Origin: Bacteroidota bacterium | GTDB taxonomy: Bacteria > Bacteroidota > Bacteroidia > Chitinophagales > BACL12 | Assembly: GCA_016706865.1 (NCBI GenBank) | Contig: JADJIS010000003.1 | Location: 466,030 to 530,029 of the forward strand | Reading direction: 5' to 3' | DNA length: 64,000 nucleotides | Shown here: positions 1,370-61,191 of the stretch, one piece after another | Position numbering within the stretch: the stretch's first letter is position 1 | How the letters are laid out: each line of letters opens with the position of its first letter | Program-made: the position numbers and the translations under genes | The notes under the pieces: model-generated | What the model saw: the letters and a program-made list of their open reading frames with translations, nothing else | Told to the model about the DNA's origin: nothing | Database searches by the model: none

Positions 1370-1781
1370 CAGTTAACAGTCAACAGTGGGCAGTTGGCAG
1401 TTTGACGGGAAGGAGGTTTTCGTAAGCCCATAACTTACAACTCAGAAAATATTGGGTCAATGGTGAGTAGTGAGTGTTGAGTTTGATCCGAGAGGGGATC
1501 GGACTCACCAAATGAGTAATGAGTAATGAGTGATGAGTTTGATCCGCGAACTAACTCAGAACCCAGAACTCCGAACTTAATGGGTGGGTGGTGAATGGTG
1601 AGGGGTGAGGAAACCCATCAAAAACCGAGAACTAACTCAGAACTCAGAACTCAGAACACAGAACACAGAACTCAGAACACAGAACTCAGAACACAGAACA
1701 CAAAACAAAAGACCTCCAAGTTTCATCCTGATCGCAATCCCGGCTGTTCAATTCTCAATTCTCAACTCTCAATTCTCAATT
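1370..1781. repeat. Seven consecutive blocks of different 7-bp tandem repeats
   Basis: Read directly: CAGTNNN x5 (1370-1404), GTGAGT-type x3 (1462-1482), ATGAGTR x4 (1512-1539), AGAACYC-type x4 (1551-1578), GGT-rich x5 (1579-1613), AGAACWC x10-12 (1625-1708), CTCAATT x5 (1747-1781, overlapping the stop at 1776-1778). Confidence 0.9.
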
Positions 1782-2579
1782 CTTTTGGAGCCATGCTGTA
1801 ACCGCTTCCCAATAATACTCATTCGCCGGATCGCTGCTCCAGAGCGCTTTTGAGCCGTGGGTGCCTTTGGTGTCGGGGTAGAATTGTGTTAATACATTTT
1901 CGGGAAGGTGTTTAAATGCTTTTTCAAGAGCACCGGCTTCTTTTTCGGTGGAGGTGATAAAAATTGGTTTGGTATTGTAGTTTTTGAAGTAATCTGCAGC
2001 GGAAGTTCCATCATCAAATTTAGCGATCGGACTGAATCCTATCACAGCCTTCACATGTTCATTATCCATGGCAACCTTTAAACATAAAGATGCCGAATAA
2101 CTGCTTCCCCAAAGGATCACGGGTTGACCCCAGGTTTCATATGCGAGATTTACACCTGCTTCAATATCGGGTAGCGAGGAGGGATAACTTGTAGCCTTAT
2201 TTGCAGCAAGTGCATTGGCATTTGTTTTATTGTCGTGTGCGTCAATTGCTCCGCCACTTCTTTGGTCCAATGCAAGGCAATTGTAACCCATGGCATTCAA
2301 TTTCGGTGCTATTTCTGCATATTCATAATTGTTCATTTTAGCCTGATGGCAAAGAACGATAACAGGTGAGGTGCTGTCGATGGAATACATCACAGCTCTC
2401 ATTGTTAACCCATCGGCGGAGGGAAATTCAATAGTATCCTGACGCATGCCGCTTACAGTAATGGGTTGTTGTTCAGGAATATCCGTTATAGTATCCTGTT
2501 CCGATTTATCTTTTTTCCCTTTACAGGCCATTAATAATGAACCTGTAAGTATTAATACAAGCAGTGAATAACCTTTCAT
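1776..2579 (-). CDS. Alpha/beta hydrolase lipoprotein (dienelactone-hydrolase-like)
   Basis: ORF 1776..2606. I prefer ATG 2579 (MKGYSLLVLILTGSLLMAC lipobox) over the GTG at 2606. GSSYSAS nucleophile-elbow-like motif and alpha/beta hydrolase-like length. Confidence 0.75.
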   Translation of the reverse strand: MKGYSLLVLILTGSLLMACKGKKDKSEQDTITDIPEQQPITVSGMRQDTIEFPSADGLTMRAVMYSIDSTSPVIVLCHQAKMNNYEYAEIAPKLNAMGYNCLALDQRSGGAIDAHDNKTNANALAANKATSYPSSLPDIEAGVNLAYETWGQPVILWGSSYSASLCLKVAMDNEHVKAVIGFSPIAKFDDGTSAADYFKNYNTKPIFITSTEKEAGALEKAFKHLPENVLTQFYPDTKGTHGSKALWSSDPANEYYWEAVTAWLQKN

Positions 2580-2710
2580 AAGATTTTTTTTGCGAAGATA
2601 AGGCACTTCGTAATTGTTAGAGAAATGTAAATTTTAAAAGCTATGTAAATATTTGGCTACCTTTGAAGCATAAACAAATCGTTTTTTGCGTTATCCCGCT
2701 AACTAAGATT

Positions 2711-4159
2711 ATGCATTTCAGAAAGATCCGGGTTCACCTCCTTTTAACCATTTCCGCAATCCTCATTTTATCGACACAAAGTTGTCGCAGAGATATATTT
2801 GTAACAGATGCAAACGCTAAACTGCAATTCAGTGAGGATACAGTGCATTTCGACACCGTTTTTACAACGGTTGGTTCCATCACCATCCCCCTTAAAATTT
2901 TTAATACCTATAACGATCCCATTTCCATATCCACTATCGAACTTTCCGGTGGTGAAGCTTCTCAATTTAGAATGAATGTGGATGGAGAATCAGGTGTTGT
3001 TTTTCACGATATTGAAATTCCCGGAAACGATAGTTTATATGTATTTATAGAGGTAACTGTTGATCCGAATGCAGACGCACTTCCATATATTATCGAAGAT
3101 TCAATACTTTTCGAAACAAATGAAAATTGGCAGAATGTGAAACTGATCGCACTTGGCCAAAATGCACATTTTCATTTTGGGGAAATTATTTGCGATACAA
3201 CCTGGACAGATGATCTGCCGCATGTAATTATCGGGTCTGTGTTAGTGGATAGTTTATGCACTCTCACTATAACAGAAGGAACGAATATACACATGCATGG
3301 AGGAAGTTATTTTTATGTGTTAGGAACATTAAATGTGATCGGAACAAAAGATAGTATAGTTTCTTTTCAGGGAGATAGATTGGAAGATTTTTATAAGGAT
3401 GTGCCGGGTCAATGGGAAGGAATTTATTATTTGCGCGGAAGTTTTACCAACACCATGATCTATGCCGAAATAAAAAACGCAAACGACGGAATTGCTCTTG
3501 GATACAGCACTACACCCGATCTGGAATATTATAAAGATTATTTACCGGAACTCACTATTTCCAATTCTATGATACACGATTGTCAGAATAACGGATTATT
3601 ATCTCTCAACAGTAAAATAAAAGCGACCAATGTTTTGATATATAATATCGGACTTAGTAATTGTGCTTTATTTATGGGTGGAGATTATGATTTCAGACAT
3701 TGCACATTCGCGAATTATAGTTCAACATATCTCGCACATCAAACTCCAATTTTAGGAATATTTGATTATTTTGCGTTCAATCAGGATAATATTATTCAGG
3801 ATGTTTTAACTAAAGCAAATTTTACAAACTGTATTGTTGAAGGGTCGATTGCAGAGGGCAATGAAATTGTTATTGATACTCTTAATGAAGGTGATCCCTT
3901 AAATTTTAATTTCGAATATTGTATTCTGCGCACCGATATCAATCAGGATCTCCTAAACGATGCAAATTGCATCTTTAATGAAAATGCTTCTTTTGCAAAT
4001 ATTGGAGAAAGAAATTATTGTCCGGGTGAATTTTCACCTGCACTCAATGCCGGAACATTTATTCTGGCTGACCCTGTTATTGATGATATCAGAGGTGAAG
4101 TGAGACCATTTGCCGGTACTTTACCCGACATTGGGGCATATGAAACTACTGCTGAGTAG
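2711..4159 (+). CDS. Hypothetical secreted protein, beta-helix-like repeats
   Basis: ORF 2663..4159 starts at a TTG. ATG 2711 gives the signal-like MHFRKIRVHLLLTISAILILSTQSC. Repetitive N/G/I-rich segments. Family not recognised. Confidence 0.7.
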   Translation: MHFRKIRVHLLLTISAILILSTQSCRRDIFVTDANAKLQFSEDTVHFDTVFTTVGSITIPLKIFNTYNDPISISTIELSGGEASQFRMNVDGESGVVFHDIEIPGNDSLYVFIEVTVDPNADALPYIIEDSILFETNENWQNVKLIALGQNAHFHFGEIICDTTWTDDLPHVIIGSVLVDSLCTLTITEGTNIHMHGGSYFYVLGTLNVIGTKDSIVSFQGDRLEDFYKDVPGQWEGIYYLRGSFTNTMIYAEIKNANDGIALGYSTTPDLEYYKDYLPELTISNSMIHDCQNNGLLSLNSKIKATNVLIYNIGLSNCALFMGGDYDFRHCTFANYSSTYLAHQTPILGIFDYFAFNQDNIIQDVLTKANFTNCIVEGSIAEGNEIVIDTLNEGDPLNFNFEYCILRTDINQDLLNDANCIFNENASFANIGERNYCPGEFSPALNAGTFILADPVIDDIRGEVRPFAGTLPDIGAYETTAE

Positions 4160-4260
4160 TTACCTTACATCAAATCTTTATTAAATTGTTGACATCTCTT
4201 TGGTTGTTTAGACATAGGTTTTCTATATTTGAATACATTTTTTAACCTAAAACCACAACT

Positions 4261-4884
4261 ATGTTTAAATTCAACATTACCCACCAGGAGTCGTACTCCC
4301 GCGGTGAATTATTACTCCGATCCTTTTTTGGATGGTTGTATATTCTGATACCGCATATGATATTGCTTTTATTTTACGGAATCTGGGTAGCCATTGCACA
4401 ATTTGTTGCATGGTGGATCATATTGTTTACCGGTAAAACACCTGAATTTTATTACACAGCCATGTTGGCATATACACGCTGGGGCTTAAGGCTCGGAGCA
4501 CGTCTTGTGAACTTAAGTGATGGTTATCCTTCTTTTGGGCCTAATGGTACCGACGACAAAACAGAGGTACATTTTGATCATAATAATATTGGCCGCGGAC
4601 AGCTATTATTGAGATCCTTTTTTGGATGGTTGTACGTTGGAATTCCTCATGGTTTTTGTTTGATGGTGAGAATGATCGGAGTTTATGTATTGGTTTTTCT
4701 CGCATGGTGGGTAGTTCTGTTTACAGGCAAATACCCTGCAGGCTGGCATAAGTTTAATGTAGGTACTTTTAGATGGGCTACAAGAGTGAATCTATATTTG
4801 TCATTTTTTCTTGATGTTTATCCTCCATTTAACGGCAAACCCGATGAAATGGAAGCAGAAGAAAAACCATTGGATCAAGTTTAA
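4261..4884 (+). CDS. DUF4389-like membrane protein (internal duplication)
   Basis: 207 aa. The motif LLLRSFFGWLY(I/V)xIPH ... LFTGK(T/Y)P occurs twice, which I recall as DUF4389. Confidence 0.7.
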   Translation: MFKFNITHQESYSRGELLLRSFFGWLYILIPHMILLLFYGIWVAIAQFVAWWIILFTGKTPEFYYTAMLAYTRWGLRLGARLVNLSDGYPSFGPNGTDDKTEVHFDHNNIGRGQLLLRSFFGWLYVGIPHGFCLMVRMIGVYVLVFLAWWVVLFTGKYPAGWHKFNVGTFRWATRVNLYLSFFLDVYPPFNGKPDEMEAEEKPLDQV

Positions 4885-4912
4885 TATTTGTTTAAATATT
4901 TTATATTTGTTA

Positions 4913-4951
4913 GAAACCGGCAGATTTGTTTTGCCGGTTTCTATTTTTTTT
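4913..4951 (+). terminator. Intrinsic terminator after the DUF4389 gene
   Basis: GAAACCGGCA ... TGCCGGTTTC stem (4913-4941) followed by a T-run (4943-4951). Confidence 0.75.
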
Positions 4952-5414: not shown

Positions 5415-5460
5415 TTGAAATGTAGAAACAGCCGGAACCCGCCAGTTGGCGGACAGGCGC

Positions 5461-5944
5461 GGATGACGCTGATTGGGCGGAAAAAAAAGGATAAAAAAAG
5501 TTGATATAGAAGTATAAACAATAATAATATTACCCTAGTTAAATTAATTCGACACGTTTAAGTCCTGAAAGGACGACACATCTTGTAACCACGGACTTCA
5601 GTCCGTGCGAATTAAAAAAGGGAACACGGATGACGCTGATTGGGCGAAAAAAAAAGGATAAAAAAAGTTGTTATAGAAGTATAAACAATAATAATATTAC
5701 CCTAGTTAAATTAATTCGACACATTTAAGTCCTGAAAGGACGACACATCTTGTAACCACGGACTTCAGTCCGTGCGAATTAAAAAAGGGAACACGGATGA
5801 CGCTGATTGGGCGAAAAAAAAAGGATAAAAAAAGTTGTTATAGAAGTATAAACAATAATAATATTACCCTAGTTAAATTAATTCGACACGTTTAAGTCCT
5901 GAAAGGACGACACATCTTGTAACCACGGACTTCAGTCCGTGCGA
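5461..5944. repeat. Tandem repeat, 2.9 copies of a 167-bp unit
   Basis: GGATGACGCTGATTGGGCG recurs at 5461, 5628 and 5795 (period 167). Each unit carries the hairpins GTCC-TGAAA-GGAC and CACGGAC-TTCA-GTCCGTG and A-runs. Two more TTTA-loop hairpins follow at about 5987-6007 and 6023-6037. Confidence 0.9.
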
Positions 5945-19360: not shown

Positions 19361-19815
19361 CTCAGAACGTAGAACCTGAATGAAGTCGCAGTCACAGTCA
19401 CAGTATTCAGTTTTGACATGAGCAAAATTTTACTCCGAATAAAACAATTTCAAACGGTTGAACGATACGTCGATAATTAATCTTGAACACAGAACTCAGA
19501 ACCCAGAATAGAACTCATCCCTAAACTTTCAGCTCCGAATCCACAGCGTTCGCTACGCGTAACACTGTGGGGACACTTTATGGGGTGGTGAACTTAGAAC
19601 CTAGAACCTGCCAGACGCTGACACAGTCGCAGGCAGGCTCAGAACTAAAACATGTAGTGATCGACGAAGGAGATCTACTACATGTCAGAACCCAGAACAA
19701 TAATATCGAATAAAGAACAAGGAATAAAGAACAACAAACAAACCACACACGAGTGATTTTCCTCCGTCTTGAACCCAGAACGCAGAACCCAGAACCCAGA
19801 ACTCAGAACGAAGAA
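19361..19815. repeat. CAGAAC-type heptamer blocks interleaved with three unique hairpins
   Basis: Blocks at 19361-19380, 19481-19517, 19591-19606 and 19767-19815. A 6-mer run GTCACA lies at 19388-19405. Hairpins: CCACAG...CTGTGG (19541-19570), CCTGCC...GGCAGG (19607-19637), ACATGTAGT...ACTACATGT (19650-19685). Confidence 0.85.
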
Positions 19816-19818
19816 CAA

Positions 19819-22128: not shown

Positions 22129-22228
22129 GTATTTGGTAATTTGGTAAGTGGATAATTTGGTAAATGTATAACCCGAAAAATTAAACCCATTTCTCGGAGC
22201 GAGATCGCCATTTGCTAATTTGCTAATC
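22129..22228 (+). repeat. Composite element copy D: AATTTGGT 8-mers, CTCG-GAG-CGAG hairpin, ATTTGCTA 8-mers
   Basis: The core at about 22169-22228 is roughly 85-90 percent identical by eye to 23291-23350. Confidence 0.8.
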
Positions 22229-23121: not shown

Positions 23122-23260
23122 ACTGCAAATTTTATCAATAATGGTTCAAATAGTGTTCCATTACTCCAAAGTCTTGCTCACCAGCTATTATCTCCCAAAG
23201 AAAAATTGAAGATCACCGGGATTTGGGGAAAATTCGCACAGTTGTACATACACATTTTTT

Positions 23261-23432: not shown

Positions 23433-23438
23433 TATTCG

Positions 23439-28082: not shown

Positions 28083-28373
28083 GTGAAAAAGGACAACGAA
28101 AAAGAAATAGGTAAAGAAATAAAACTTTTATTCAAAAGTTACCATCTCGACGAAAAGATCGCAGAAGTTCGTATTAAAGAACTATGGGAAACCATCATGG
28201 GTAAAAGCATAAAAAATTACACCACCGGTATGCATTTGTATAAAGGCGTATTAACAGTATTCATCGAATCAGCTCCCTTAAAACAAGACCTCAAATTTTC
28301 TAAAGAAAATATTATTGCACGCATTAATGAGGAGTTGGGGGAGAGGATGGTTAAGGACATAATCATAAAGTGA
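28083..28373 (+). CDS. DUF721 (DciA-like) protein downstream of recF
   Basis: 96 aa with a GTG start. It holds the conserved position after recF. The LWETIMGKSIKNYT...GVLTVFIESAPLKQDL pattern is typical of DUF721. Confidence 0.8.
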   Translation: MKKDNEKEIGKEIKLLFKSYHLDEKIAEVRIKELWETIMGKSIKNYTTGMHLYKGVLTVFIESAPLKQDLKFSKENIIARINEELGERMVKDIIIK

Positions 28374-28408
28374 GTATTTAGTATATAGTATTTAGTAGTT
28401 AGAGTTTA
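28372..28408 (+). repeat. TAGTATT-type heptamer block starting at the DUF721 stop codon
   Basis: GAGTATT TAGTATA TAGTATT TAGTAGT TAGAGTT. A weaker echo lies at 29208-29240 after the next gene. Confidence 0.75.
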
Positions 28409-29702: not shown

Positions 29703-29775
29703 CAGAGGACATCCATTTAATTATATTCAAATTTTCATACGTATTGTAATAAAAGTTTAAAATAATATTTAAGTA

Positions 29776-29843
29776 TTAATTCGAAGCAATTCGCTTCAAT
29801 GTTTCAAACTGCCCACTGCCCACTGCTCACTGTTGACTTGTTA
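29776..29843 (+). repeat. Hairpin element TAATTCGAAGCAATTCGCTTCAATGTTTCAAA plus CTGCCCA heptamer block
   Basis: GAAGC-AATTC-GCTTC hairpin, then CTGCCCA CTGCCCA CTGCTCA CTGTTGA CTTGTTA (29809-29843). Same family as 46116-46378. Confidence 0.8.
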
Positions 29844-32223: not shown

Positions 32224-32624
32224 TGAAAATAGGAAGAAAAAAACATTACGATCTCGAAGTGTTTTCATCAACGATGAACGATATCATGTTCTTCCTGATG
32301 TTATTCTTTTTGATCATTTCCACTTTGGCAAATCCCAATGTGATAAAAGTATTACTGCCGCAAAGCGGAACTACAGATACCTATAGCAAACAAGATGTAA
32401 CCCTCACCGTTAATGCTGCAAAAGAATATTTTATTGACGATCGCCAAGTGAGTTTCGACATGCTCGAAATGGAACTCAACAACGCAACAGCTAACTCTGC
32501 AGAAAAAGTAGTTGTACTTCGCGCAGATGCAACATTAACTATTCAGGATCTTGTGGATGTGCTTCAAATTGGAGCTAAGAATCATGTGAGGATTGTTATG
32601 GCTACGGATAAGAGTAATTTCTGA
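32223..32624 (+). CDS. exbD: Biopolymer transport protein ExbD/TolR
   Basis: 133 aa with an N-terminal TM (IMFFLMLFFLIISTL) and VVLRADATLTIQDLVDVL typical of ExbD. Confidence 0.88.
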   Translation: MKIGRKKHYDLEVFSSTMNDIMFFLMLFFLIISTLANPNVIKVLLPQSGTTDTYSKQDVTLTVNAAKEYFIDDRQVSFDMLEMELNNATANSAEKVVVLRADATLTIQDLVDVLQIGAKNHVRIVMATDKSNF

Positions 32625-32957
32625 GGGGAAATAGGAAGTAGGAAATAGGAAGTAGGACATAGGATTGACATAGGACATGGGAAATCGGACATAGGATTTG
32701 ATTTGATTTTAATTGAGAATTAATTTCTAATTGGAGATTTTTTTCAGGCCGTAAATTATGCCTCGGAGGAGTGAGGCTCTCGCTCTTCGCGAGGGTCTCA
32801 CTAAAGGTATAGAAAGCAGAAAGGACATGGGAAATCGGACATAGGATTTAATTTGATTTTAATTCAGAATTAATTTCTATTTGGAGATTTTTTTCAGGCC
32901 GTAAATTATTCATCGGAGGAGTGAGGCTCTCGCTCTTCGCGAGGGTCTCACTAAAGG
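32625..32957 (+). repeat. TAGGAAG/TAGGACA heptamer block followed by two 135-bp direct repeats, each with a 13-bp-stem hairpin
   Basis: The heptamers at 32625-32701 begin 1 nt after the exbD stop. Copies at 32673-32807 and 32823-32957 have a 150-bp period. Hairpins GTGAGGCTCTCGC-TCTTC-GCGAGGGTCTCAC lie at 32771-32801 and 32921-32951. Confidence 0.9.
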
Positions 32958-32997: not shown

Positions 32998-33215
32998 TCA
33001 AAATTTCGCCAGAAATTTAAACTCCTATTTTGGTATCAGGAATCAAGTATCAGGAAAACAAACTCAGTGATTTGAAAAAAAATCGAAGAAATTTCAACTC
33101 CTTTCTCATTTCTCATATTTTGGTATCAGGAATCAAGTATCAGGAAACACATAATAGTGTTTAGCAAAATTTCGCCAGAAATTTAATCTCCTTTCTCCTC
33201 TCTCCTCACTCCTTT
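32998..33215 (+). repeat. Three copies of the composite AAATTTCG-NN-AGAAATTT hairpin element
   Basis: Hairpins at 33001-33018, 33075-33094 (degenerate) and 33167-33184. GTATCAG heptamers lie at 33033-33060 and 33123-33150. CT-rich tails read AAACTCCT.../AATCTCCTTTCTCCTCTCTCC. Confidence 0.85.
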
Positions 33216-33292: not shown

Positions 33293-34210
33293 ATGAAATT
33301 TTCACTAAAATTTATTTGCATTATTTTTTTATTTTCTATTAATTTATTAGTGTATGGGCAAATAAAAGTTCATTATTATTCAAAATCAGTGTTTGCAGAA
33401 AACATTGAGACGTTAAAGAAAACTACTTTGGTTTTTGTGGTCACAGATAACTATAAAGATTCTTTAGATGTAATTGAAAAGGCCTTAGAAAAATCTTGGA
33501 CACTAACAAAGTACGAAGTGATCACATACGATGAGTTAAAATATTATGTGAATGAAGATGGATATTCTTACATGAAAATGCAAGGATTTCTTGCTACTCC
33601 CAAAATTTTATCAACTGTGTATTTTGAATTACAATTAAAAGTAGAAAACTCAGATAAGACTAAAATAACGTGGAAACCGATTGCTTACATGAACCTATAT
33701 ATTGATAGGACAAATAATACGGAAGGAATTGAAAAGGGAGAAGAATATCTTTATGAAATACAATATCATAATTATAATGCCGGTTTTTTAAAATTATTTG
33801 TGAAGACGATAAATGACTATATTCTTGCAGGAAAACCTATAGGCGAATTTGATACTGATATATCTATCCCTTCTGAGGTCGAAAAATTAAAAATGGATAC
33901 CTTATATATTCCGGACTACACATTGAAATTGTCTAAAAAATACGTAAGCGAAAGTAAATTTAAGGTCAGAAGTCACGAAGAATTTCTTGAGGATTATCCT
34001 TATGAGGCCACAATATTGAGCGCAGATGAGTTAGGTAATAAAATTTTAAATGGCTCTATTGACTATGCACTTATTTATACGAGTGATAGTGAATTAATTT
34101 CTTTTATGGTTTACAACGTTAAAACCGGTGAATTAATTTATGGAAAATTTTTAGAGTTTAAGGAAAATCTTAAATCGAAAGATCTTTTAGATATTTTTGA
34201 GGAAAATTAG
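33293..34210 (+). CDS. Hypothetical secreted protein
   Basis: 305-aa ORF with a signal peptide (MKFSLKFICIIFLFSINLLVYGQ). No recognised family. Confidence 0.7.
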   Translation: MKFSLKFICIIFLFSINLLVYGQIKVHYYSKSVFAENIETLKKTTLVFVVTDNYKDSLDVIEKALEKSWTLTKYEVITYDELKYYVNEDGYSYMKMQGFLATPKILSTVYFELQLKVENSDKTKITWKPIAYMNLYIDRTNNTEGIEKGEEYLYEIQYHNYNAGFLKLFVKTINDYILAGKPIGEFDTDISIPSEVEKLKMDTLYIPDYTLKLSKKYVSESKFKVRSHEEFLEDYPYEATILSADELGNKILNGSIDYALIYTSDSELISFMVYNVKTGELIYGKFLEFKENLKSKDLLDIFEEN

Positions 34211-34345
34211 AAGTAGGACATAGGACCTAGGACATAGGACCTAGGACCTAGAACATGACAAGGACATGACAAGGACATGACAAGGACATGACAAGGACAG
34301 AAAAGAGTGGGGTAAATTTCGCAAGAAATTTAAACTTCTTTTCCA
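34208..34345 (+). repeat. AGGACMT heptamers, 4 x 11-mer CATGACAAGGA, then AAATTTC-GCAA-GAAATTT hairpin element
   Basis: The heptamers at 34208-34256 start with the TAG stop itself. The 11-mer x4 lies at 34254-34297. The hairpin lies at 34314-34331 with tail AAACTTCTTTTCC. Confidence 0.88.
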
Positions 34346-38060: not shown

Positions 38061-38358
38061 GACACGGGATATGGGACACGGGATATAGGACACGGGACAC
38101 GGGACACGGGACTGGACATAGGACATTGGAAATGTGACATAGGAATCCAAAATTGTATCGGGTATAATGTATCAGGAAAGCAATTGGTGGGATTTGCAAA
38201 AATTTCGCAAGAAATTTAAACTCCTTTCTTGTGAGTATCAAGTATCAGGTATCATGTATCAGGAAAACAAACGGTGGGATCAAATCAAATTTCGAAGAAA
38301 TTTAAACTCCTTTCTCCTTTCTCCTCTTTCCTTTCTCCTCTCTGCTCTCTCCTCTCTC
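38061..38358 (+). repeat. GACACGG/CATAGGA heptamers, two composite AAATTTCG..AGAAATTT hairpin elements, CCTYTCT heptamers
   Basis: The heptamers at 38061-38144 (12 units) start on the first nt after the rarA stop. Hairpins lie at 38200-38217 (GCAA loop) and 38287-38303. GTATC-type heptamers lie at 38233-38267. The CT block at 38307-38358 abuts the stop of the minus-strand gene. Confidence 0.9.
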
Positions 38359-39901
38359 ATTTTTGTTTTTTATTTATTATTTGTATATCATTATCTTCCA
38401 CAATATATTCCGGAAGTTTTTGACTGTCGAAGCTTTCAAATGCTCCAAGTTTGTAACCCATGTTTTTAAGTGAGTCGATAGTATTTTCTGGAGGAAACCA
38501 GGCATAAACATTTTTAGAGGAATAAAACATTGCATCTATTTCACACATCGATTTGCAATTAAAAATAATATCAACATCCGGGGCGATATTGTCGATCTCT
38601 CTATAAATTGCAGTGTTCCATAACTTCAAGTCCTTTTCGTTTTCAGTATACATGCTTTTGCCTTTAACATGGGAGAATTTGATGTCTCTAAATGAAATGA
38701 TATATGCAGAAATTCCAAATAAGGTGACAAATAAAAATGCATACTTAATATAATTTTGTTTAAAAAAATCTGAGATATAATCAATCACTACAATGAGTCC
38801 CTTGCTGAAGATCAAAATTATTAGTGGAGCAATATAGTATACATAGGAATATGATTTGGACTTCGCAATGCTAAAAACAACATATACGATTATTATGCAA
38901 GTAATAAATGAAATCCATAATGTTTTATTTTGCCCCTTTCTGAAAATGAATATTAACCCTAGAATAAGTAATAGTATGGAAAATTGTCCATACTGCTGTA
39001 AATATAAATTTAAATAATGATACCATTCTCCGGAATGTCCTTCCAAAACTTCCGTGAAATGTCTTTTATTAAATTCGTATTCATAAGCACTTTCTAATGG
39101 CCATTTTTTCCAAACGTAAATCTGCCACGGCATAAATGTCAGGAAACTAAGCAATAATGCACCTGTAATTTTAAGATATTCTATATTTTTATGTATAATT
39201 AATCTATCGAGAAGCGAATGAATTCCCCAAACACCAAATATGAACAATCCCGGAAGCCATTTATTTAATATCGCAATTCCGGAAAATACGCCAATTCCCA
39301 CAACATAAATAATACTCCCTTGTTTCAAATATTTTAAATAACACCAAATACTTAAAGTGGTATAGAACATAAATGATATATCATTATGATCCATGCCAAT
39401 TACTCCGGCCGTTTGTTCTAACTGGTAAAATGAAAAACAAAACATCAGAGCGGCAGCAAATCCCACCTTTTTATTAAATAAATAGGTCCCCATGCTTAAA
39501 ATAAGAATAGTAGCGAGCGCTCCCATGATTACACTAGGCAACCTTACGGCAAATTCAGTTGGACCTAGTAATTTAATACTCGCAGCAATTTGCCATAAAA
39601 AGAAAGGTTGTTTGTGTACCCAAATGTGATTTCCTGTCCACGAAGTATAATCATATGGTAAGACCGGTTCAGTTCTTAACATGGGTTTAAATGGATGTTC
39701 AGCCATGTTTTTACCAACAAGAGCATGATATCTTTCGTCATAATTATGTAAATAATTATCCTGCTCCGCAATAAACACTCTAATAAGAAAGGCACTTGTA
39801 AAAAGAAATAAATACATACCTGCTTTTATGTTTTTCAACATAAAAATAAATGCGATCATGCCTGATAAAAATGATAAATATATTAAATAGTCCTTTTCCA
39901 T
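38357..39901 (-). CDS. Glycosyltransferase family 39 / ArnT-like polytopic membrane protein
   Basis: 514 aa with more than 10 TM helices. The N-terminal loop DERYHALVGKNMAEHPFKPML is typical of PMT/ArnT-type glycosyltransferases. Confidence 0.75.
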   Translation of the reverse strand: MEKDYLIYLSFLSGMIAFIFMLKNIKAGMYLFLFTSAFLIRVFIAEQDNYLHNYDERYHALVGKNMAEHPFKPMLRTEPVLPYDYTSWTGNHIWVHKQPFFLWQIAASIKLLGPTEFAVRLPSVIMGALATILILSMGTYLFNKKVGFAAALMFCFSFYQLEQTAGVIGMDHNDISFMFYTTLSIWCYLKYLKQGSIIYVVGIGVFSGIAILNKWLPGLFIFGVWGIHSLLDRLIIHKNIEYLKITGALLLSFLTFMPWQIYVWKKWPLESAYEYEFNKRHFTEVLEGHSGEWYHYLNLYLQQYGQFSILLLILGLIFIFRKGQNKTLWISFITCIIIVYVVFSIAKSKSYSYVYYIAPLIILIFSKGLIVVIDYISDFFKQNYIKYAFLFVTLFGISAYIISFRDIKFSHVKGKSMYTENEKDLKLWNTAIYREIDNIAPDVDIIFNCKSMCEIDAMFYSSKNVYAWFPPENTIDSLKNMGYKLGAFESFDSQKLPEYIVEDNDIQIINKKQK

Positions 39902-42398: not shown

Positions 42399-42408
42399 GG
42401 GGGAAAGG

Positions 42409-42494
42409 GGAAATAGGAAGTAGGAAGTAGGAAATAGGACTTACTTATCTTAGGTCCTACGTCTTCCTACTTCCTACTTCCTACTTCCTATTTC
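42409..42494. repeat. Long inverted repeat built from TAGGAAG heptamers (about 31-bp arms)
   Basis: Left arm GAAATAGGAAGTAGGAAGTAGGAAATAGGAC (42409-42440), right arm GTCCTACGTCTTCCTACTTCCTACTTCCTACTTCCTATTTC (42454-42494). It starts 11 nt after the GH16 stop. Confidence 0.9.
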
Positions 42495-42531
42495 ACATTT
42501 TTCCTTACCTTTAACCTAAATTCATAATCAA

Positions 42532-42864: not shown

Positions 42865-42868
42865 TTTT

Positions 42869-44218: not shown

Positions 44219-44287
44219 GTGTGTGTATGCAAGGCAAATGTAATATTTTTATTGAATTTCGGAAAGGCAATTTAGGTAAAATACAAT

Positions 44288-45706: not shown

Positions 45707-45773
45707 ATACGAATATAAAACGTTTTCTGGAAAGATAGAAAAATTTATAATTTGATAGTAGGCGGCACCCGTG

Positions 45774-46000
45774 AGATATGATATAGGAAATAGGACATAG
45801 GACATATGACATAGGACACAGAACATAGGAAAACAAAGGGTGGAGTTTGCAATAATACTTACTCCTTGAAGCTCTCGCTCGCATCGAGGTTTTCACTAAT
45901 GAAAATGTCCATCACCAGTAAGGCTCTCGCCATTAGGGGGTCTCACTAATGATAATCTCCATCACCAGTGAGGCTCTCGCTCCCGCCGAGGTCTCTGCTT
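45774..46000 (+). repeat. ACATAGG heptamer block followed by three tandem AGGCTCTCGC...GAGGTCTCAC hairpins (period about 50 bp)
   Basis: Heptamers at 45774-45836. Hairpins at 45867-45897, 45918-45947 and 45968-45996, the same family as 32771-32801. Further hairpins are TTCGC-TAAGAGA-GCGAA (about 46024-46040) and CTTTAGTTTA-CAAGTA-TAAACTAAAG (about 46067-46092). Confidence 0.85.
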
Positions 46001-46115
46001 TGTCTTTTACCTTTATTGAGACCTTCGCTAAGAGAGCGAAAGCCTCAAAACTCCCGCCGGATGGGACTTTAGTTTACAAGTATAAACTAAAGGAAGTTAT
46101 ATATAAAGACAAATT

Positions 46116-46378
46116 ATAATTCGAAGCAATTTGCTTCAATATTACAAACTGCGACTGCGACGGGCCCCCTGCCCCAAAGGGGAGTTAAGTTTTTCAAAAA
46201 TTAAAAATATAATTTCGAAGCGAAAATCTCCAATGTTACAAACTGCCCACTGCCCACTGTTGACTGTTTACTGCCCCAAAGGGGAGTTAAGTTTTTCAAA
46301 AATTAAAAATATAATTTCGAAGCGAAAATCTCCAATGTTACACACTGCCCACTGCCCACTGCTCACTACCCCTACTAC
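46116..46378 (+). repeat. About 2.7 tandem copies (93-102 bp) of the element ATAATTYCGAAGC...CAATRTTACAAA + CTGCCCA heptamers + CCCC-AAA-GGGG hairpin
   Basis: Unit starts at 46116, 46209 and 46311. CTGCCCA blocks at 46243-46277 and 46345-46372. CCCCAAAGGGG at about 46172-46182 and 46274-46284. Confidence 0.88.
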
Positions 46379-46452
46379 AATCTCCATTTTTTCTCCTTGC
46401 CCGATTCATTAAAAATGAGTCAATTTGCAGTATAAAATTTCAAACCTTTTAT

Positions 46453-48072: not shown

Positions 48073-48126
48073 ATTTCGGCAACAGCACCGATCAATAAAT
48101 TAAAACCCTTATAAACAGGCTGTTAT

Positions 48127-48185
48127 AAGTCATAAAAAGTTATGTAACCGTTTGGTTTCATAACTTTTTTATGACTTTTTGTTTT
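48127..48185 (+). terminator. Intrinsic terminator after the ELWxxDGT gene
   Basis: 18-bp stem AAGTCATAAAAAGTTATG / CATAACTTTTT(T)ATGACTT, followed by TTTGTTTT. Confidence 0.75.
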
Positions 48186-48282
48186 ATTAAAACTTTCAGA
48201 TACAAATTGAAAATTTTCTCTTTTATATCCTTTGCAATTCTCTGTTTTTTTGTCCTATTATTTTAACCTAAAAATTAATATT

Positions 48283-49782: not shown

Positions 49783-49809
49783 TTTGAATTCATCTTTAAA
49801 CTTTATCTT

Positions 49810-52116: not shown

Positions 52117-52161
52117 TCACACCTTAATGATATTCGCCCAATAAGCGGATAGGTTTGAAAT

Positions 52162-52192
52162 CCTGCCTCGTTAGTTCGGGGCAGGTTTTTTT
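52162..52192 (+). terminator. Intrinsic terminator after the M4 peptidase gene
   Basis: CCTGCCTCG-TTAGTT-CGGGGCAGG followed by a T7 run. Confidence 0.85.
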
Positions 52193-52194
52193 GT

Positions 52195-52278
52195 GGAAAT
52201 AGGAAGTAGGACATAGGAAATAGGATACAGGATGTTGGACTTGATATGGGACATTGGAAAAATGATATAGGACTTAGA
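52195..52278 (+). repeat. GGAARTA/GGACATA heptamer block (12 units)
   Basis: GGAAATA GGAAGTA GGACATA GGAAATA GGATACA GGATGTT GGACTTG ..., directly after the terminator T-run. Confidence 0.85.
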
Positions 52279-52524
52279 TTGATTTTACCTCAAAGTATTC
52301 ATACGGTCTTAAATTGCCAATCATTTTATTAACTTGTCTTTTATATTTTACCATATAGACCCAAGTTGATTTTGAAATTATCATCCTATTTGTATCATTT
52401 CATCAATATTTTTTATCTTTTAAATCCACCCGATCCATGTCGTAGTAGGTTGGGTAAATAAAAACCCGGCTCCATCTAGCGACTTTACCGGGTATCCCCA
52501 TGAAAACACAATCTTTATAATAAT

Positions 52525-54888: not shown

Positions 54889-55137
54889 AATAAGTGGTTT
54901 AAGAGTAATAAAATTACAGACCTTTAGTGATATTTCCTAATAAAATAATTGGTTTTTTATTTTTCGATAAGGAATTTAATATAATTTTCTAGTTAAAAAT
55001 TTGGAATTTAAAATTAAAAATACTAGATTTCGTTTTAATTGGAACCAATTCCCATATTCCCGATCTAGACGAGACTTTCCTTGTTCCAATTCGTAATCTA
55101 TTAAACTCACTCACCATATGGTGGTAAATGACTTATT

Positions 55138-57948: not shown

Positions 57949-57975
57949 AAGAATAAATTTGATAAATCAAAAACA

Positions 57976-58020
57976 TTCAACAACCCGCTAAATTTTAAAG
58001 GCGGGTTGTTGAATAATTTA
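57976..58020 (+). terminator. Probable terminator hairpin after the 936-aa gene
   Basis: 13-bp stem TTCAACAACCCGC / GCGGGTTGTTGAA. The downstream T-run is weak (TAATTT). Confidence 0.45.
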
Positions 58021-58231
58021 AAAAAAATCCTTTTGGGAGGAAGATGAATATAAATCCCAGATTTATTTTAGGACATATAAAATCTACATGAAATCATAGT
58101 TGAATCCCAAAACGATCAATCTGCAACTATTTTTAGTTTTTTATCAAATGCAATTTTAGAATTGAATCAAGTTAAAACTATAAGGCCGACTTTATTTAAG
58201 AAATCAGTTGAAACTTAATTATTAAATTTGT

Positions 58232-60804: not shown

Positions 60805-60805
60805 G

Positions 60806-60864
60806 ATGGTGAGTGGGGAGTGGTGAGTAGTGAGTAGGGTGGTGAGTAGAAAGTAGTGAGTGGG
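60806..60864 (+). repeat. GGTGAGT-type heptamer block starting 2 nt after the groEL stop
   Basis: ATGGTGA GTGGGGA GTGGTGA GTAGTGA GTAGGGT GGTGAGT AGAAAGT AGTGAGT. Confidence 0.85.
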
Positions 60865-60914
60865 ATCGAAACCCGAAAAGCATCGCTTCGAATTTATACT
60901 TTAATGAAATTAAA

Positions 60915-60947
60915 ACCTTTCTGGAGTTTTTCAGGAAGGTTTTTTTA
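60915..60947 (+). terminator. Intrinsic terminator of groESL
   Basis: ACCTTTCTG-GAGTTTTT-CAGGAAGGT followed by a T7 run (60941-60947). Confidence 0.8.
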
Positions 60948-60985
60948 TGAATGAGTAATGAGTTATGAGTAATGAGTTTGATCCT
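60947..60985 (+). repeat. ATGAGTR heptamers ending in GAGTTTGATCC
   Basis: ATGAATG AGTAATG AGTTATG AGTAATG AGTTTGATCC. The same module occurs at 1462-1489 and 1512-1545. Confidence 0.85.
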
Positions 60986-61037
60986 GCTCACATTGGTGCT
61001 TTGAATTCCTTTTTGAAAATTTTGCTAACCTGATGCT

Positions 61038-61191
61038 CAGAACCCAGAACTCAGAACCCAGAACTCAGAACCCAGAACTCAGAACCCAGAACTCAGAACC
61101 CAGAACTCAGAACCCAGAACTCAGAACCCAGAACTCAGAACCCAGAACTCAGAACCCAGAACTCAGAACCCAGAACTCAGAACCCAGAACT
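61038..61191 (+). repeat. Perfect tandem array (CAGAACC CAGAACT) x 11, i.e. 22 heptamers in 154 bp
   Basis: Counted directly. There are no mismatches and the two units alternate strictly. The array ends 19 bp before ATG 61210. Confidence 0.97.

What the first reader, a model, noticed from the sequence alone, without database searches (positions are those of the whole stretch)
1370..61191. STRR-like heptanucleotide tandem-repeat blocks fill the long intergenic gaps of a Bacteroidota chromosome
Almost every intergenic gap longer than about 100 bp contains runs of 3-22 tandem copies of a 7-bp unit, and the unit changes from block to block. The blocks are: CAGTNNN/CTGCCCA (1370-1404, 29809-29843, 46243-46277, 46345-46372); GTGAGT/ATGAGTR (1462-1539, 60806-60864, 60947-60974); CAGAACY (1551-1578, 1625-1708, 19481-19517, 19767-19815, 61038-61191); GGT-rich (1579-1613); CTCAATT (1747-1781); TAGTATT (28372-28408); TAGGAAG/TAGGACA/GACACGG (32625-32701, 34208-34256, 38061-38144, 42409-42440, 45774-45836, 52195-52278); GTATCAG (33033-33060, 33123-33150, 38233-38267); CCTYTCT (33186-33212, 38307-38358). 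A period of 7 is incompatible with coding, and no block lies inside a CDS I accept. Blocks commonly flank a short unique hairpin (block-hairpin-block). The only precedent I can name is the heptameric STRR (short tandemly repeated repetitive) families of heterocystous cyanobacteria. As I recall, their units include CAACAGT, which occurs literally at 1381-1387. I am not aware of this organisation being described for Bacteroidota, and its function is unknown even in cyanobacteria.
Basis: partly seen in the sequence, partly recalled or inferred. Interest (0 to 1): 0.8.

Follow-up and report, generated by a model that had tools for sequence, protein, structure and literature searches.

The report
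Heptamer repeat arrays between genes
The spaces between genes in this uncultured wastewater Bacteroidota (Chitinophagales) genome hold many runs of 7-base repeats; these are real and change length between strains, but they belong to a known and still unexplained class of bacterial repeats, and their one new feature is a strikingly fixed G-rich-then-C-rich order that also holds in many other phyla.

Summary
The blocks are real. Every listed coordinate holds a period-7 array, the signal is about 450 times chance, and it is confined to non-coding DNA. "Almost every gap" is overstated: 11-12 of 30 gaps of at least 100 bp carry arrays, and 9-10 of 20 gaps of at least 200 bp.

The genome is an uncultured Chitinophagales lineage from activated sludge. 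Independent assemblies reproduce the arrays. The only indels between near-identical strains are multiples of 7 nt inside arrays.

In kind these are STRR/LSSR-type heptanucleotide microsatellites. They are not the named STRR families: CCCCAGT, TTGGTCA, CAACAGT and TAACTGA never occur twice in tandem here. The novelty claim fails, because intergenic heptamer arrays were already described in five Bacteroidetes (MacGregor 2015) and heptamers dominate long repeats across prokaryotes (Mrázek 2007).

New here:
- The arrays sit in recurring modules of the form array, small hairpin, array.
- Adjacent arrays of opposite skew read G-rich then C-rich on either strand. The count is 5:1 in the window, 30:3 in genome loci naming about 20 phylum-level groups, and 37:2 in metagenome loci.

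Intrinsic terminators, translation signals and simple palindromy were each tested as explanations of this order and failed. Function remains inferred, not shown.

The parts
1370..1404 (+). CAGTNNN x5 array, G>C on the + strand. On the - strand it reads ACTGNNN, about 70-100 nt upstream of the sigma-factor gene 696-1301 (-).
1455..1540 (+). GGTGAGT x4, then hairpin GATCCGAGAGGGGATCGGA (1486-1504), then ATGAGTR x4.5.
   Evidence: hairpin -9.4 kcal/mol, z -1.5
1551..1713 (+). CAGAACY x4, then a G-rich GGTGRRT x5 block (1579-1613), then CAGAACW x12.
   Evidence: identical in L319, L320 and L321
1744..1785 (+). CTCAATT x5.5, abutting the stop of the hydrolase gene 1776-2606 (-). It reads AATTGAG in that gene's sense.
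19481..19818 (+). Three CAGAACY-type arrays (19481-19517, 19588-19611, 19767-19818) separated by two hairpins (19534-19573, 19650-19685), in a convergent gap.
   Evidence: hairpins z -2.3 and -4.8
28369..28408 (+). TAGTATT x4-5 array, 75 nt upstream of gene 28479-29210 (+).
29735..29843 (+). Module made of hairpin GAAGCAATTCGCTTC, then AATGTTTCAA, then ACTGCCC x4. It belongs to the same module family as 46117-46372.
   Evidence: families D11, D17
32624..32701 (+). TAGGAMA x10 array starting at the stop codon of gene 32223-32624 (+).
33001..33214 (+). Two roughly 90-bp modules of the form (GTATCAG)n, then AAATTTCGNNAGAAATTT hairpin element, then (CTCCTYT)n.
   Evidence: (D13, D14, D20)
34208..34338 (+). 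TAGGACM x6 starting at the stop of gene 33293-34210 (+), then ACATGACAAGG x4.3 (an 11-mer), then a copy of the 25-nt hairpin element (34314-34338).
38061..38362 (+). Composite in a convergent gap: GACACGG/TAGGACA x12 starting at the stop of the RarA/MgsA-like gene, then two GTATCAG-hairpin-CTCCTYT modules, ending at the stop of gene 38357-39901 (-).
   Evidence: Against the sister strain the first array is +21 nt and the last is -21 nt.
42399..42500 (.). Inverted arrays (TAGGAAG)x4, 13-nt loop, (CTTCCTA)x4, forming a long hairpin between the GH16 gene and the 2TM gene.
   Evidence: Fold -53.4 kcal/mol, z -7.6. Replaced by 1.2 kb carrying a RAYT-like gene in the sister strain. The CTTCCTA arm is 120 nt long in relative L190.
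45772..45836 (+). TAGGAMA x8 array. On the - strand it reads TCCTATG, 65 nt upstream of the real start of gene 44288-45706 (-).
46117..46372 (+). Hairpin-plus-ACTGCCC modules, including a 102-bp unit repeated 1.9 times, upstream of gene 46453-48072 (+).
   Evidence: 46313-46372 is identical in two independent short-read assemblies, L002 and L003
52195..52278 (+). TAGGAMA x10 array just after the intrinsic-terminator-like hairpin (52160-52193) of the M4 peptidase gene.
60806..60864 (+). GGTGAGT x8 array between the groEL stop and its predicted intrinsic terminator (60912-60945). It is therefore inferred to lie in the groESL 3' UTR.
   Evidence: terminator fold -15.9 kcal/mol, z -3.6; invariant across samples
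60947..60979 (+). ATGAGTA x4 array downstream of the groEL terminator.
61035..61194 (+). (CTCAGAA CCCAGAA) x11.3, a perfect array. It abuts a TACCTTTG box (61194-61201; the Bacteroidetes -7 promoter motif TAnnTTTG, from knowledge) 8 nt before the radical-SAM start codon at 61210.
   Evidence: The spacer is 308, 378, 392 or 406 bp in different assemblies, differing only by 14-nt units. Relatives carry (CTCATTC)x4 or shorter CAGAACY-type arrays at the same place.
22131..22227 (+). Octamer version of the module: (ATTTGGTA)n, then hairpin TCTCGGAGCGAGA, then (ATTTGCTA)n. A second copy lies at 23254-23366.
   Evidence: (D19)

Best explanation
These are heptanucleotide microsatellites of the STRR / long-simple-sequence-repeat (5-11 nt) kind.

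Shown:
- They sit only in non-coding DNA, where a 7-nt period cannot break a reading frame.
- They change length in whole units between near-identical strains, and long perfect arrays vary most. That is the signature of slipped-strand mispairing or unequal exchange during replication or repair.
- They persist at the same gene boundaries in relatives whose neighbouring radical-SAM protein is 83-88% identical (one is upstream of the 2TM gene), while unit and copy number turn over.
- They recur as parts of short modules: array, small hairpin, array.
- Within a cluster they follow a fixed order. On either strand the 5' array is G-rich and the 3' array is C-rich. About 40% of such pairs are true inverted arms that can zip into a long hairpin.

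Inferred:
- They are mostly tolerated, self-perpetuating spacer DNA at the ends of transcription units. 25 of 26 polar pairs in other lineages lie next to at least one gene 3' end.
- They are not sequence-specific switches.
- The polarity reflects a directional constraint or directional synthesis that I could not identify.

This lineage is one heavily loaded member of a phenomenon seen in records naming about 20 phylum-level groups.
For: - Period-7 signal only outside ORFs and about 450 times chance.
- In 20 kb shared with the sister strain, which is 97.5-99.4% identical, indels over 2 nt net occur only in two heptamer arrays, and each nets 21 nt; three 1-nt gaps lie at 42525-42529 and 42865.
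- The groEL to radical-SAM spacer differs among assemblies only by 14-nt units, while the imperfect arrays are invariant.
- Orthologous spacers in relatives keep the architecture but change the unit: CAGAACY against CTCATTC, and ATGAGTA against ATGAGGA.
- Density falls with distance. It is 4.2 arrays per 10 kb here, 1.9-3.8 in three of four relatives at 71-88% (none in the 6.7-kb L194 at the same threshold), and 0 in 22 kb each in Pseudobacter and another Chitinophagaceae-like genome.
- Modules recur.
- Loci picked by one heptamer unit carry 402 period-7 arrays against 47 period-8 and 26 period-9. A second, independent set gives 395 against 32 and 32.
- Polarity G-then-C against C-then-G is 30:3 (p 1.4e-6) and 37:2 (p 2.8e-9), and 5:1 in the window.
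- In the window, arrays within 100 nt after a stop are G>C in sense in 12 of 12 cases, and arrays within 100 nt before a start are C>G in 7 of 8. This is a manual tally plus the CTCCTYT array. An automated count gives 7 of 8 and 6 of 8.
- Literature: heptamers are the commonest long simple repeats in prokaryotes, and polymerase slippage was proposed as the cause (Mrázek 2007 as summarised in PMC4679880). STRRs are 7-bp, hairpin-forming and of unknown function (PMC2670836).
Against: - Slippage explains length change but not why 7 nt, nor the polarity.
- Some copy-number differences come from short-read assemblies that often break inside the perfect array, so they may be partly assembly error. 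The two long-contig assemblies (0.23 and 1.43 Mb) agree with the window.
- Arrays persisting at the same gene boundaries over 83-88% protein identity, and the strict order, hint at selection and hence at function.
- Whole-gap folds are not better than shuffles for 38061-38362 (z +1.5) and only weakly so for 60805-61210 (z -2.2).
- No transcript data exist here.
Confidence: 0.6

Rival explanations
1. The blocks are parts of miniature mobile elements (MITE, REPIN or small-dispersed-repeat-like) that are copied around the genome by a transposase. The arrays would be their arms.
For: - Composite modules with the same order of parts recur at distant loci: 33033, 33123, 38155 and 38242; 29735, 46117, 46169 and 46271; 22131 and 23254.
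- A 25-nt hairpin element occurs 4 times against 0 expected.
- In the sister strain the palindromic array element 42394-42518 is replaced by 1.2 kb carrying a REP-associated tyrosine transposase-like gene, scoring 74.9 bits against a cutoff of 80.
- From memory, Elhai et al. 2008 described small mobile repeats embedded in heptamer arrays in Nostoc.
Against: - The REP-like words flanking that transposase gene (GCAGGGTTCTTGYC) are absent from the window, so it is not tied to the heptamers.
- Module copies are only 65-81% alike and differ mostly in array length.
- No target-site duplications or empty sites were seen.
- The 25-nt element has no exact match in JGI metagenome contigs.
- Spacers between inverted arms in other phyla are unrelated to one another.
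Confidence: 0.15
2. The arrays are functional binding tracts with a 7-nt register for an RNA-, ssDNA- or DNA-binding protein such as a cold-shock or S1-like protein, or copy-number-dependent (phase-variable) promoter elements.
For: - Arrays are held at the same gene boundaries in relatives while the units change.
- One array abuts the putative -7 promoter box of the radical-SAM gene and varies in copy number.
- G-arm units all carry NAG triplets at fixed spacing (my reading).
- Heptamer repeats affected recO and recF reporter expression in Nostoc (preprint 10.1101/2022.06.06.494920).
- MacGregor proposed S1, Csp or CsrA binding.
Against: - At least 8 different unit families occur in 64 kb, and units are replaced by others at orthologous sites. 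That argues against one sequence-specific partner.
- Copy number does not change the spacing between the -7 box and the start codon.
- The neighbouring genes are ordinary housekeeping and secreted-enzyme genes.
- No candidate binding protein is encoded in the window.
Confidence: 0.15
3. The G-arm/C-arm pairs are transcription terminators or insulators, either long-stem intrinsic terminators or Rho-loading sites.
For: - 25 of 26 polar pairs in other lineages lie next to at least one gene 3' end. The split is convergent 7, tandem 18, divergent 1, against a baseline of 64, 228 and 62.
- In the window several genes ending at 32624, 34210, 38060 and 42398 have arrays but no canonical terminator after the stop.
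- The 42399-42500 hairpin is very stable at -53 kcal/mol.
- C-arms are G-poor, with 0-1 G per unit.
Against: - T-runs after C-arms are no commoner than A-runs: 12 of 63 against 12 of 63.
- Only about 40% of pairs are complementary.
- The two clear intrinsic terminators in the window (60912-60945 and 52160-52193) have the opposite arm polarity, with the C/U-rich arm first.
- A Rho site would work better in the C-then-G order, which is an inference.
- Gene calls in those loci were crude.
Confidence: 0.1
4. The arrays are assembly artefacts.
For: Several short-read contigs end inside the perfect 158-nt array.
Against: - The same arrays with the same sequence appear in over 10 contigs from different samples and assemblers, including two assemblies with long contigs of 0.23 and 1.43 Mb.
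- Imperfect arrays are invariant across those assemblies.
Confidence: 0.01

Closest known systems
Cyanobacterial STRR (short tandemly repeated repetitive) sequences. Mazel et al. 1990 is cited from memory; the description used here is the one in PMC2670836.
   Same: - 7-nt units in tandem.
- Non-coding location.
- Many loci per genome.
- Often able to form hairpins or sitting next to them.
- Function unknown.
   Different: - The host is an uncultured Chitinophagales bacterium, not a heterocystous cyanobacterium.
- None of the three named units occurs in tandem.
- At least 8 unit families are mixed within single gaps.
Long simple sequence repeats with 5-11-nt units (LSSR5-11; Mrázek, Guo and Shah 2007, as summarised in PMC4679880).
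   Same: - Heptanucleotides predominate.
- Found in free-living bacteria with large genomes.
- Scattered across the phylogeny.
- Slippage proposed as the origin.
   Different: As far as I could read, that survey did not describe the array-hairpin-array modules or the G-then-C polarity. The paper itself is not held in the library, so I could not check.
Intergenic TAACTGA and other heptamer direct repeats in Beggiatoaceae, Cyanobacteria and five Bacteroidetes (MacGregor 2015, PMC4679880).
   Same: - Intergenic heptamer direct repeats, sometimes long.
- Mixed with other heptamer units in the same gap.
- Absent from the orthologous gaps of close relatives.
- Contigs that break in the repeats.
   Different: - TAACTGA itself is absent as a repeat here.
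- Here most arrays follow stop codons or sit 16-100 nt upstream of starts, rather than within a few nt of the start.
- The density is much higher than in the Bacteroidetes reported there, which had 2-14 sets per genome for that unit.
Small dispersed repeats (SDR) embedded in heptamer arrays in Nostoc (Elhai et al. 2008, from memory; not held in the library).
   Same: Short hairpin elements of about 25 nt recur between heptamer arrays: AAATTTCGNNAGAAATTTAAACTCC, 4 copies plus 2 variants.
   Different: - No sequence relation was tested.
- No evidence of insertion events ('before and after' sites) was found here.
REP/REPIN elements with their RAYT transposases (for example PMC3116915).
   Same: - Short palindromic intergenic repeats.
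- A RAYT-like gene exists in the sister strain, at the site of one palindromic array element.
   Different: - REPs are fixed 20-40-nt palindromes, not tandem 7-mers.
- The REP-like words beside that gene are absent from the window.
Phase-variable heptanucleotide repeats in pathogen promoters (for example the HMW1A/2A promoters of Haemophilus influenzae, PMC8262952).
   Same: 7-nt tandem repeats near promoters whose number changes by slippage.
   Different: - There, a single locus tunes a surface adhesin.
- Here there are dozens of arrays of many units beside housekeeping genes, mostly after stop codons, in an environmental bacterium.

Membership tests
Cyanobacterial STRR families (STRR1-3) | Tandem heptanucleotide unit in non-coding DNA | tested here: met
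Cyanobacterial STRR families (STRR1-3) | Unit is CCCCAGT, TTGGTCA or CAACAGT (units recalled from memory of Mazel et al. 1990) | tested here: not met
   No rotation of any of the three occurs twice in tandem on either strand. CAACAGT occurs once, at 1381-1387, inside a CAGTNNN array.
Cyanobacterial STRR families (STRR1-3) | Host is a heterocystous cyanobacterium | tested here: not met
   Type IX secretion sorting domains and an SprB repeat are present, and the best named homologues are Chitinophagaceae.
LSSR5-11 (long simple sequence repeats, Mrázek 2007) | Tandem repeats of 5-11-nt units that are longer than chance allows in that genome | tested here: met
   Arrays of 21-160 nt, with 0 expected in shuffles.
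LSSR5-11 (long simple sequence repeats, Mrázek 2007) | Length polymorphism in whole units, consistent with slippage | tested here: met
   Indels of 21 nt and differences of 14-nt units. Caveat: some of the contigs compared are short-read assemblies.
TAACTGA repeat network (MacGregor 2015) | Direct repeats of TAACTGA | tested here: not met
TAACTGA repeat network (MacGregor 2015) | Position within a few nt upstream of start codons, in forward orientation | tested here: inconclusive
   One array ends 16 nt before a start (61035-61194). Most arrays follow stops or lie 65-100 nt upstream of starts.
REP/REPIN-RAYT system | Family of near-identical short palindromes, plus a RAYT gene flanked by them | tested here: not met
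   There is no RAYT gene in the window. The flank words of the sister strain's RAYT-like gene are absent from the window.
MITE-like mobile element | Terminal inverted repeats with target-site duplication, and polymorphic empty sites | tested here: inconclusive
   Inverted array arms exist. No duplications or empty sites were seen, and only three strain comparisons were possible.
Intrinsic (Rho-independent) terminator | Stable hairpin followed at once by a U-run | tested here: not met
   12 of 63 polar pairs have at least 5 T in 8 within 20 nt after the C-arm, the same as for A. The true terminators in the window are separate hairpins.
Phase-variable contingency locus | Repeat number changes promoter spacing or reading frame of a surface or host-interaction gene | tested here: not met
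   Arrays lie outside CDS and outside the interval between the -7 box and the start codon. The neighbouring genes include groEL, RarA and a radical-SAM enzyme.

The most novel reading that the evidence does not exclude
Heptamer arrays may not be independent microsatellites. They may be halves of a pan-bacterial polar module: a G-rich array, a short spacer or hairpin, then a C-rich array, reading the same on either strand.

The polarity is 67:5 pooled over two independent sets (genome records naming about 20 phylum-level groups, plus metagenome contigs of unknown origin). It holds even when the two arms are not complementary. It is not explained by intrinsic terminators, by start or stop codon content, or by palindromy.

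That would imply a directional process nobody has described for these repeats. One candidate is reiterative 3'-end DNA synthesis converging on a central break or hairpin. Another is a strand-specific factor that reads a 7-nt register.
Probability: 0.25. Interest if true: 0.8.

Novelty: new member of a known kind. Interest (0 to 1): 0.5.

Why it matters
Heptanucleotide arrays have been known in cyanobacteria since 1990 and across prokaryotes since 2007, with no accepted origin or function. This window adds four things.

- **A new host.** It is a very densely loaded, uncultured Chitinophagales lineage that is abundant in wastewater plants, so long-read data, metagenomes and probably metatranscriptomes from many samples exist for it.
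- **Direct evidence of turnover.** Strains differ by whole units, and the unit itself changes at orthologous gene boundaries.
- **A testable rule.** The order is G-rich arm first, then C-rich arm. It holds in two independent collections, and the genome set names about 20 phylum-level groups. Any explanation now has to account for it, which gives a 35-year-old puzzle a concrete handle.
- **A practical point for annotation and assembly.** Stop-free arrays lengthen ORF calls: 790 aa against 731 aa, and 512 aa against 472 aa. Perfect arrays also break short-read assemblies.

Tried and rejected
In IMG/VR, however, a scrambled unit (GACACAN) was just as common, 13 against 13, and period-8 versions were as common too, 17 and 13. 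I therefore do not claim the unit is special. No paper in the library contains such a repeat string.
- **Is each gap one long palindrome?** The minimum-energy folds do pair G-arms with C-arms in register. The energies are not better than shuffles, though: z +1.5 and z -2.2. Rejected as a general rule.
- **Are the pairs bidirectional intrinsic terminators?** There is no U- or A-tract enrichment. Rejected.
- **Does the polarity come from translation signals, with stops after genes and no starts before genes?** This holds in the window: stops in 7 of 8 sense against 2 of 8 antisense, and starts in 2 of 8 against 5 of 8. It does not hold in other lineages: 108 against 103, and 44 against 51. Not supported as the general cause.
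- **Is a RAYT transposase linked to the arrays?** Its REP-like flank words are absent from the window.
- **How widespread is the 25-nt hairpin element?** It has no exact match in JGI metagenome contigs.
- **Do known RNA families explain the hairpins?** Rfam at gathering threshold finds only the tRNA-Met.
- **Do consensus scans help?** The sigma-70 promoter and terminator scan was uninformative here: 83 promoter-like sites against 84.6 expected.
- **Can the polarity be measured relative to genes in other phyla?** The first attempt was weak (odds ratio 2.4), because ORF calls ran through stop-free arrays. It was redone with arrays masked.
- **Literature I could not reach.** The Mrázek 2007 paper could not be read: it is not held. 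The STRR unit sequences could not be verified from held papers.

Full report
**1. The observation.**

Direct reading of the sequence agrees.

I built a crude gene map from long ORFs, later checked against public gene calls. With it, base identity at lags 7, 14 and 21 is raised only outside ORFs: 0.329, 0.319 and 0.311, against about 0.28-0.29 at neighbouring lags. Inside ORFs lag 7 is 0.266.

- A fixed criterion (at least 11 of 14 matches at lag 7) gives 27 segments covering 1038 nt.
- That is 448 passing positions, against a mean of 0.96 in 50 local shuffles.
- Periods 8, 9 and 10 give 20, 1 and 0 passing positions.
- A stricter score gives 12 period-7 arrays, against at most 1 for any other period from 5 to 12.

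Two arrays fall inside longest-ORF calls: 45776-45826 and 61036-61193. Their 'translation' is pure repeat, and public annotations start those genes downstream, giving 472 aa and 731 aa products. So no array lies in a credible CDS.

The quantifier is wrong, however. Only 11-12 of 30 gaps of at least 100 bp carry a heptamer array, and 9-10 of 20 gaps of at least 200 bp. The 9.3 kb just left of the window, read in the sister genome, has none. Other gaps hold octamer arrays, an 11-mer array, or 90-170-bp tandem hairpin modules instead.

**2. The organism, and whether the arrays are real.**

At least twelve proteins carry the type IX secretion C-terminal sorting domain, and one carries an SprB repeat. 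The radical-SAM protein's best named homologues are Chitinophagaceae at 67-71% identity. A few unnamed metagenome relatives reach 83-89%. The host is therefore an uncultured Chitinophagales lineage.

Exact protein look-ups place the window in activated-sludge and wastewater assemblies. The groEL to radical-SAM spacer is identical in GCA_016708595.1 and GCA_963852155.1. Twenty kilobases are 97.5-99.4% identical to GCA_963852155.1.

The arrays recur unchanged in many independent assemblies, so they are not artefacts. Short-read contigs do often end inside the perfect 158-nt array.

**3. Dynamics.**

Against the sister strain, indels of more than 2 nt net in 20 kb occur only in two heptamer arrays. 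The window has +21 nt at 38061-38144 and -21 nt at 38305-38362; three 1-nt gaps also lie at 42525-42529 and 42865.

The groEL to radical-SAM spacer is 308, 378, 392 or 406 bp in different assemblies. The difference is only the number of 14-nt CTCAGAACCCAGAA units. The imperfect GGTGAGT and ATGAGTA arrays in the same spacer never vary.

Relatives were ranked by the identity of their radical-SAM protein.
- At 84% identity (L190), the spacer keeps the same layout: stop, GGTGAGT-type array, terminator, ATGAGKA array, hairpins, then an array abutting a TAnnTTTG box. The last array is (CTCATTC)x4, though, not (CAGAACY)x22.
- At 83% identity (L194), the relative has CAGTNNN and short CAGAACY-type arrays there.
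- The CTTCCTA arm upstream of the 2TM gene is 43 nt here and 120 nt in L190.

Array density is 4.2 per 10 kb here. It is 1.9-3.8 in three relatives at 71-88% identity, whose units include ATGAGTA, CACTCAC and CTTCCTA; the fourth, the 6.7-kb L194, has none at that threshold. It is 0 in 22 kb each of Pseudobacter ginsenosidimutans and another genome at about 69%.

These are unit-wise, purity-dependent length changes at persistent sites. That is what slipped-strand mispairing predicts.

**4. Anatomy.**

Units fall into a few families:
- NAGT+3 on the G-rich strand (GGTGAGT, ATGAGTA, the complement of CAGAACT, CAGTNNN)
- TAGGAMA, with the variant GACACGG
- GTATCAG
- CTCCTYT
- CTCAATT
- TAGTATT

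Arrays are parts of recurring modules.
- (GTATCAG)n, then an AAATTTCGNNAGAAATTT hairpin element, then (CTCCTYT)n, found four times.
- A GAAGC...GCTTC hairpin, then (ACTGCCC)n, found four times.
- An octamer version, found twice.

Some spacers fold well. 42399-42500 gives -53.4 kcal/mol with z -7.6, and 19640-19690 gives z -4.8. Others do not.

The GGTGAGT array after groEL lies before a clear intrinsic terminator (60912-60945, z -3.6). I infer that it is transcribed as part of the 3' UTR.

**5. A polarity rule.**

In the window, arrays within 100 nt after a stop codon are G>C in the gene's sense in 12 of 12 cases. Arrays within 100 nt before a start are C>G in 7 of 8. This is a manual tally plus the CTCCTYT array. 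An automated count gives 7 of 8 and 6 of 8.

For all four gene arrangements this is arithmetically the same as a simpler statement: on either strand, a gap reads G-rich arrays first and C-rich arrays second. That form needs no gene calls and is unchanged by reverse complementation, so I tested it elsewhere.

| Set | How loci were chosen | Period-7 arrays (vs period 8, period 9) | Adjacent opposite-skew pairs, at most 150 nt apart: G-then-C vs C-then-G |
|---|---|---|---|
| Species-representative genomes, 120 loci, 863 kb | (CAGAACN)x3+CAGAAC | 402 (47, 26) | 30 vs 3, binomial p 1.4e-6, spread over 27 vs 3 loci |
| Metagenome contigs, 120 loci, 754 kb | (TAGGANN)x3+TAGGA | 395 (32, 32) | 37 vs 2, p 2.8e-9 |
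| This window | not applicable | 35 (3, 1) | 5 vs 1 |
| IMG/VR viral contigs | CAGAACN, GACACAN and period-8 patterns | 95 (66, 49) pooled | 2 vs 4, no bias |

The record titles of the genome set name about 20 phylum-level groups, among them Acidobacteriota, Nitrospirota, Chloroflexota, Planctomycetota, Verrucomicrobiota, Gemmatimonadota, Desulfobacterota, Bacillota, Actinomycetota, Cyanobacteriota, Bacteroidota, Pseudomonadota and candidate-phyla-radiation lineages.

Only 13 of 27 and 13 of 37 G-then-C pairs share a reverse-complement word of at least 10 nt. The rule is therefore not just palindromy.

In these other lineages the gene-relative skew is weaker. After a stop, G>C leads 87:56. Before a start, C>G leads 72:54 (crude gene calls). 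The polarity therefore looks like a property of the array cluster itself.

**6. Explanations of the polarity that I tested.**

- **Intrinsic terminators.** T-runs after C-arms are no commoner than A-runs, 12 of 63 each. The window's two clear terminators have the opposite arm order. Not supported.
- **Translation signals.** Stop-rich after genes and start-poor before genes holds in the window. It does not hold elsewhere: 108 vs 103 for stops, and 44 vs 51 for starts.
- **Whole-gap hairpins.** Minimum-energy folds pair the arms in register but are not better than shuffles.
- **Position.** 25 of 26 polar pairs lie next to at least one gene 3' end. The split is convergent 7, tandem 18, divergent 1, against a baseline of 64, 228 and 62. 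This is weak evidence either for a role at transcription-unit ends or simply for tolerance there.
- **Untested.** Rho loading on the C-rich strand, and directional DNA synthesis. The strand running 5' to 3' towards the centre is G-rich on both sides, as it would be if two 3' ends were extended towards each other.

**7. Comparison with what is known.**

STRRs in heterocystous cyanobacteria are described as usually 7-bp repeats that can form hairpins, with function unknown (PMC2670836). The three named STRR units, which I recall from memory, and TAACTGA never occur twice in tandem here. This is therefore STRR-like in kind, but not a member of those families.

MacGregor 2015 reported TAACTGA and 'other heptamer direct repeats' in intergenic regions of five Bacteroidetes, with arrays absent from the orthologous gaps of close relatives and with contigs breaking in the repeats (PMC4679880). 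The same paper relays two points from Mrázek et al. 2007: heptanucleotides are the most abundant long simple repeats in most prokaryotic genomes, and polymerase slippage was proposed as the cause. A Nostoc preprint shows modest reporter effects of heptamer repeats.

The claim that this organisation is undescribed in Bacteroidota is therefore not supported.

I did not find the module grammar or the G-then-C polarity in the papers I could read. I could not read Mrázek 2007, Mazel 1990 or Elhai 2008, so I do not claim priority.

**8. Verdict.**

This is a real and very dense example of a known but unexplained class: a new member of a known kind. The most likely origin is slippage in non-coding DNA, with arrays persisting as tolerated spacer or boundary DNA (confidence 0.6).

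Rival explanations:
- mobile modules, 0.15
- 7-nt-register binding or regulatory tracts, 0.15
- terminators or insulators, 0.1
- assembly artefact, 0.01

The cross-phylum polarity is the part worth following up.

Noticed in passing
L001 4823-6066 (sister strain GCA_963852155.1), corresponding to window 42394-42518: The palindromic heptamer element of the window is replaced in the sister strain by 1.2 kb. This insert carries a 190-aa REP-associated tyrosine transposase-like gene (NF047646, 74.9 bits against a cutoff of 80; it has the motif GYVIMPDHLHALI). The gene is flanked by inverted GCAGGGTTCTTGYC words, and those words are absent from the window.
   Followed up: partly
window 30750-31273: A 102-bp unit repeated 5.2 times in tandem. 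Each unit is itself a long imperfect hairpin (CACAATGGAACACACAAGGGACACAAAG ... CTTTGTGGGTTCCCTTGTGTCCATTGTG) plus a GTGGT-A9-ACCAC stem. Longest-ORF calls run through it on both strands.
   Followed up: no
window 5460-5944, 24510-24701 and 32659-32958: Further tandem modules of 167 bp (x2.9), 106 bp (x1.8) and 150 bp (x1.9). Each contains small GC-rich hairpins, for example GTCCTGAAAGGAC and CCACGGACTTCAGTCCGTGC. A GAGGCTCTCGCT motif recurs at 32770, 32920 and 45870-45990.
   Followed up: no
window 22131-22227 and 23254-23366: Two 85%-identical modules built from 8-nt arrays: (ATTTGGTA)n, a hairpin, then (ATTTGCTA)n. One follows a gene's stop. The other lies just 3' of the tRNA-Met gene (23438-23512, - strand).
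   Followed up: partly
window 38085-38115: (GGGACAC)n gives at least four G3 tracts with 4-nt loops, which is a canonical G-quadruplex-forming pattern on the + strand right after the RarA/MgsA-like gene. Period 7 equals G3 plus a 4-nt loop.
   Followed up: no
window 33186-33214 and 38305-38362: The CTCCTTTCT arrays look like the 3' tail of 16S rRNA (anti-Shine-Dalgarno, ...CCUCCUUUCU, from knowledge). Their complement is a run of AGGAG-like Shine-Dalgarno sequences. This may be coincidence.
   Followed up: no
window 61194-61210; L190 and L194 upstream of the radical-SAM gene: A TAnnTTTG box (TACCTTTG here, TACATTTG in the relatives) ends only 8 nt before the ATG. This is the Bacteroidetes -7 promoter motif, from knowledge. 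If it is the promoter, the mRNA would be leaderless or nearly so, and the heptamer array would occupy the -33 and upstream region.
   Followed up: partly
window 42519-58072 against L001; L191-L193: Strain differences are mosaic. SNPs are dense at 42585-44408 and almost absent at 44409-58072. In L191-L193 the groEL spacer is nearly identical to the window while the adjacent radical-SAM protein is only 88% identical. This suggests frequent homologous recombination between lineages.
   Followed up: no
window 60912-60945 and 52160-52193: The two clear intrinsic terminators have a C/U-rich 5' arm and a G/A-rich 3' arm. That is the opposite order to the heptamer array pairs.
   Followed up: partly
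window 35213-36463 (in CDS 34399-36543) and 53646-54769 (in CDS 52525-54888): 180-nt coding repeats (x6.9) with a conserved ...YISADGGW...-type segment. They are shared in diverged form between two secreted T9SS proteins. Separately, 11289-11955 and 16697-17363 are 76-80% identical paralogous segments.
   Followed up: no
window 61033-61209, 45707-45826 and 30624-31309: Stop-free repeat arrays inflate ORF calls. One public annotation calls the radical-SAM gene at 790 aa, starting inside the array, while others aa. Spurious ORFs of 121-128 aa cover the 102-bp repeat.
   Followed up: yes
L082 (Anabaena cylindrica), L016, L025, L040, L065, L093: In unrelated phyla the same layout recurs: (GTTCTGA)3-10, then an unrelated spacer of 20-60 nt, then (ACTCAGA)4-5. 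In Anabaena the C-arm is (CTCATTA)n, the complement of the ATGAGTA unit seen in this window.
   Followed up: partly
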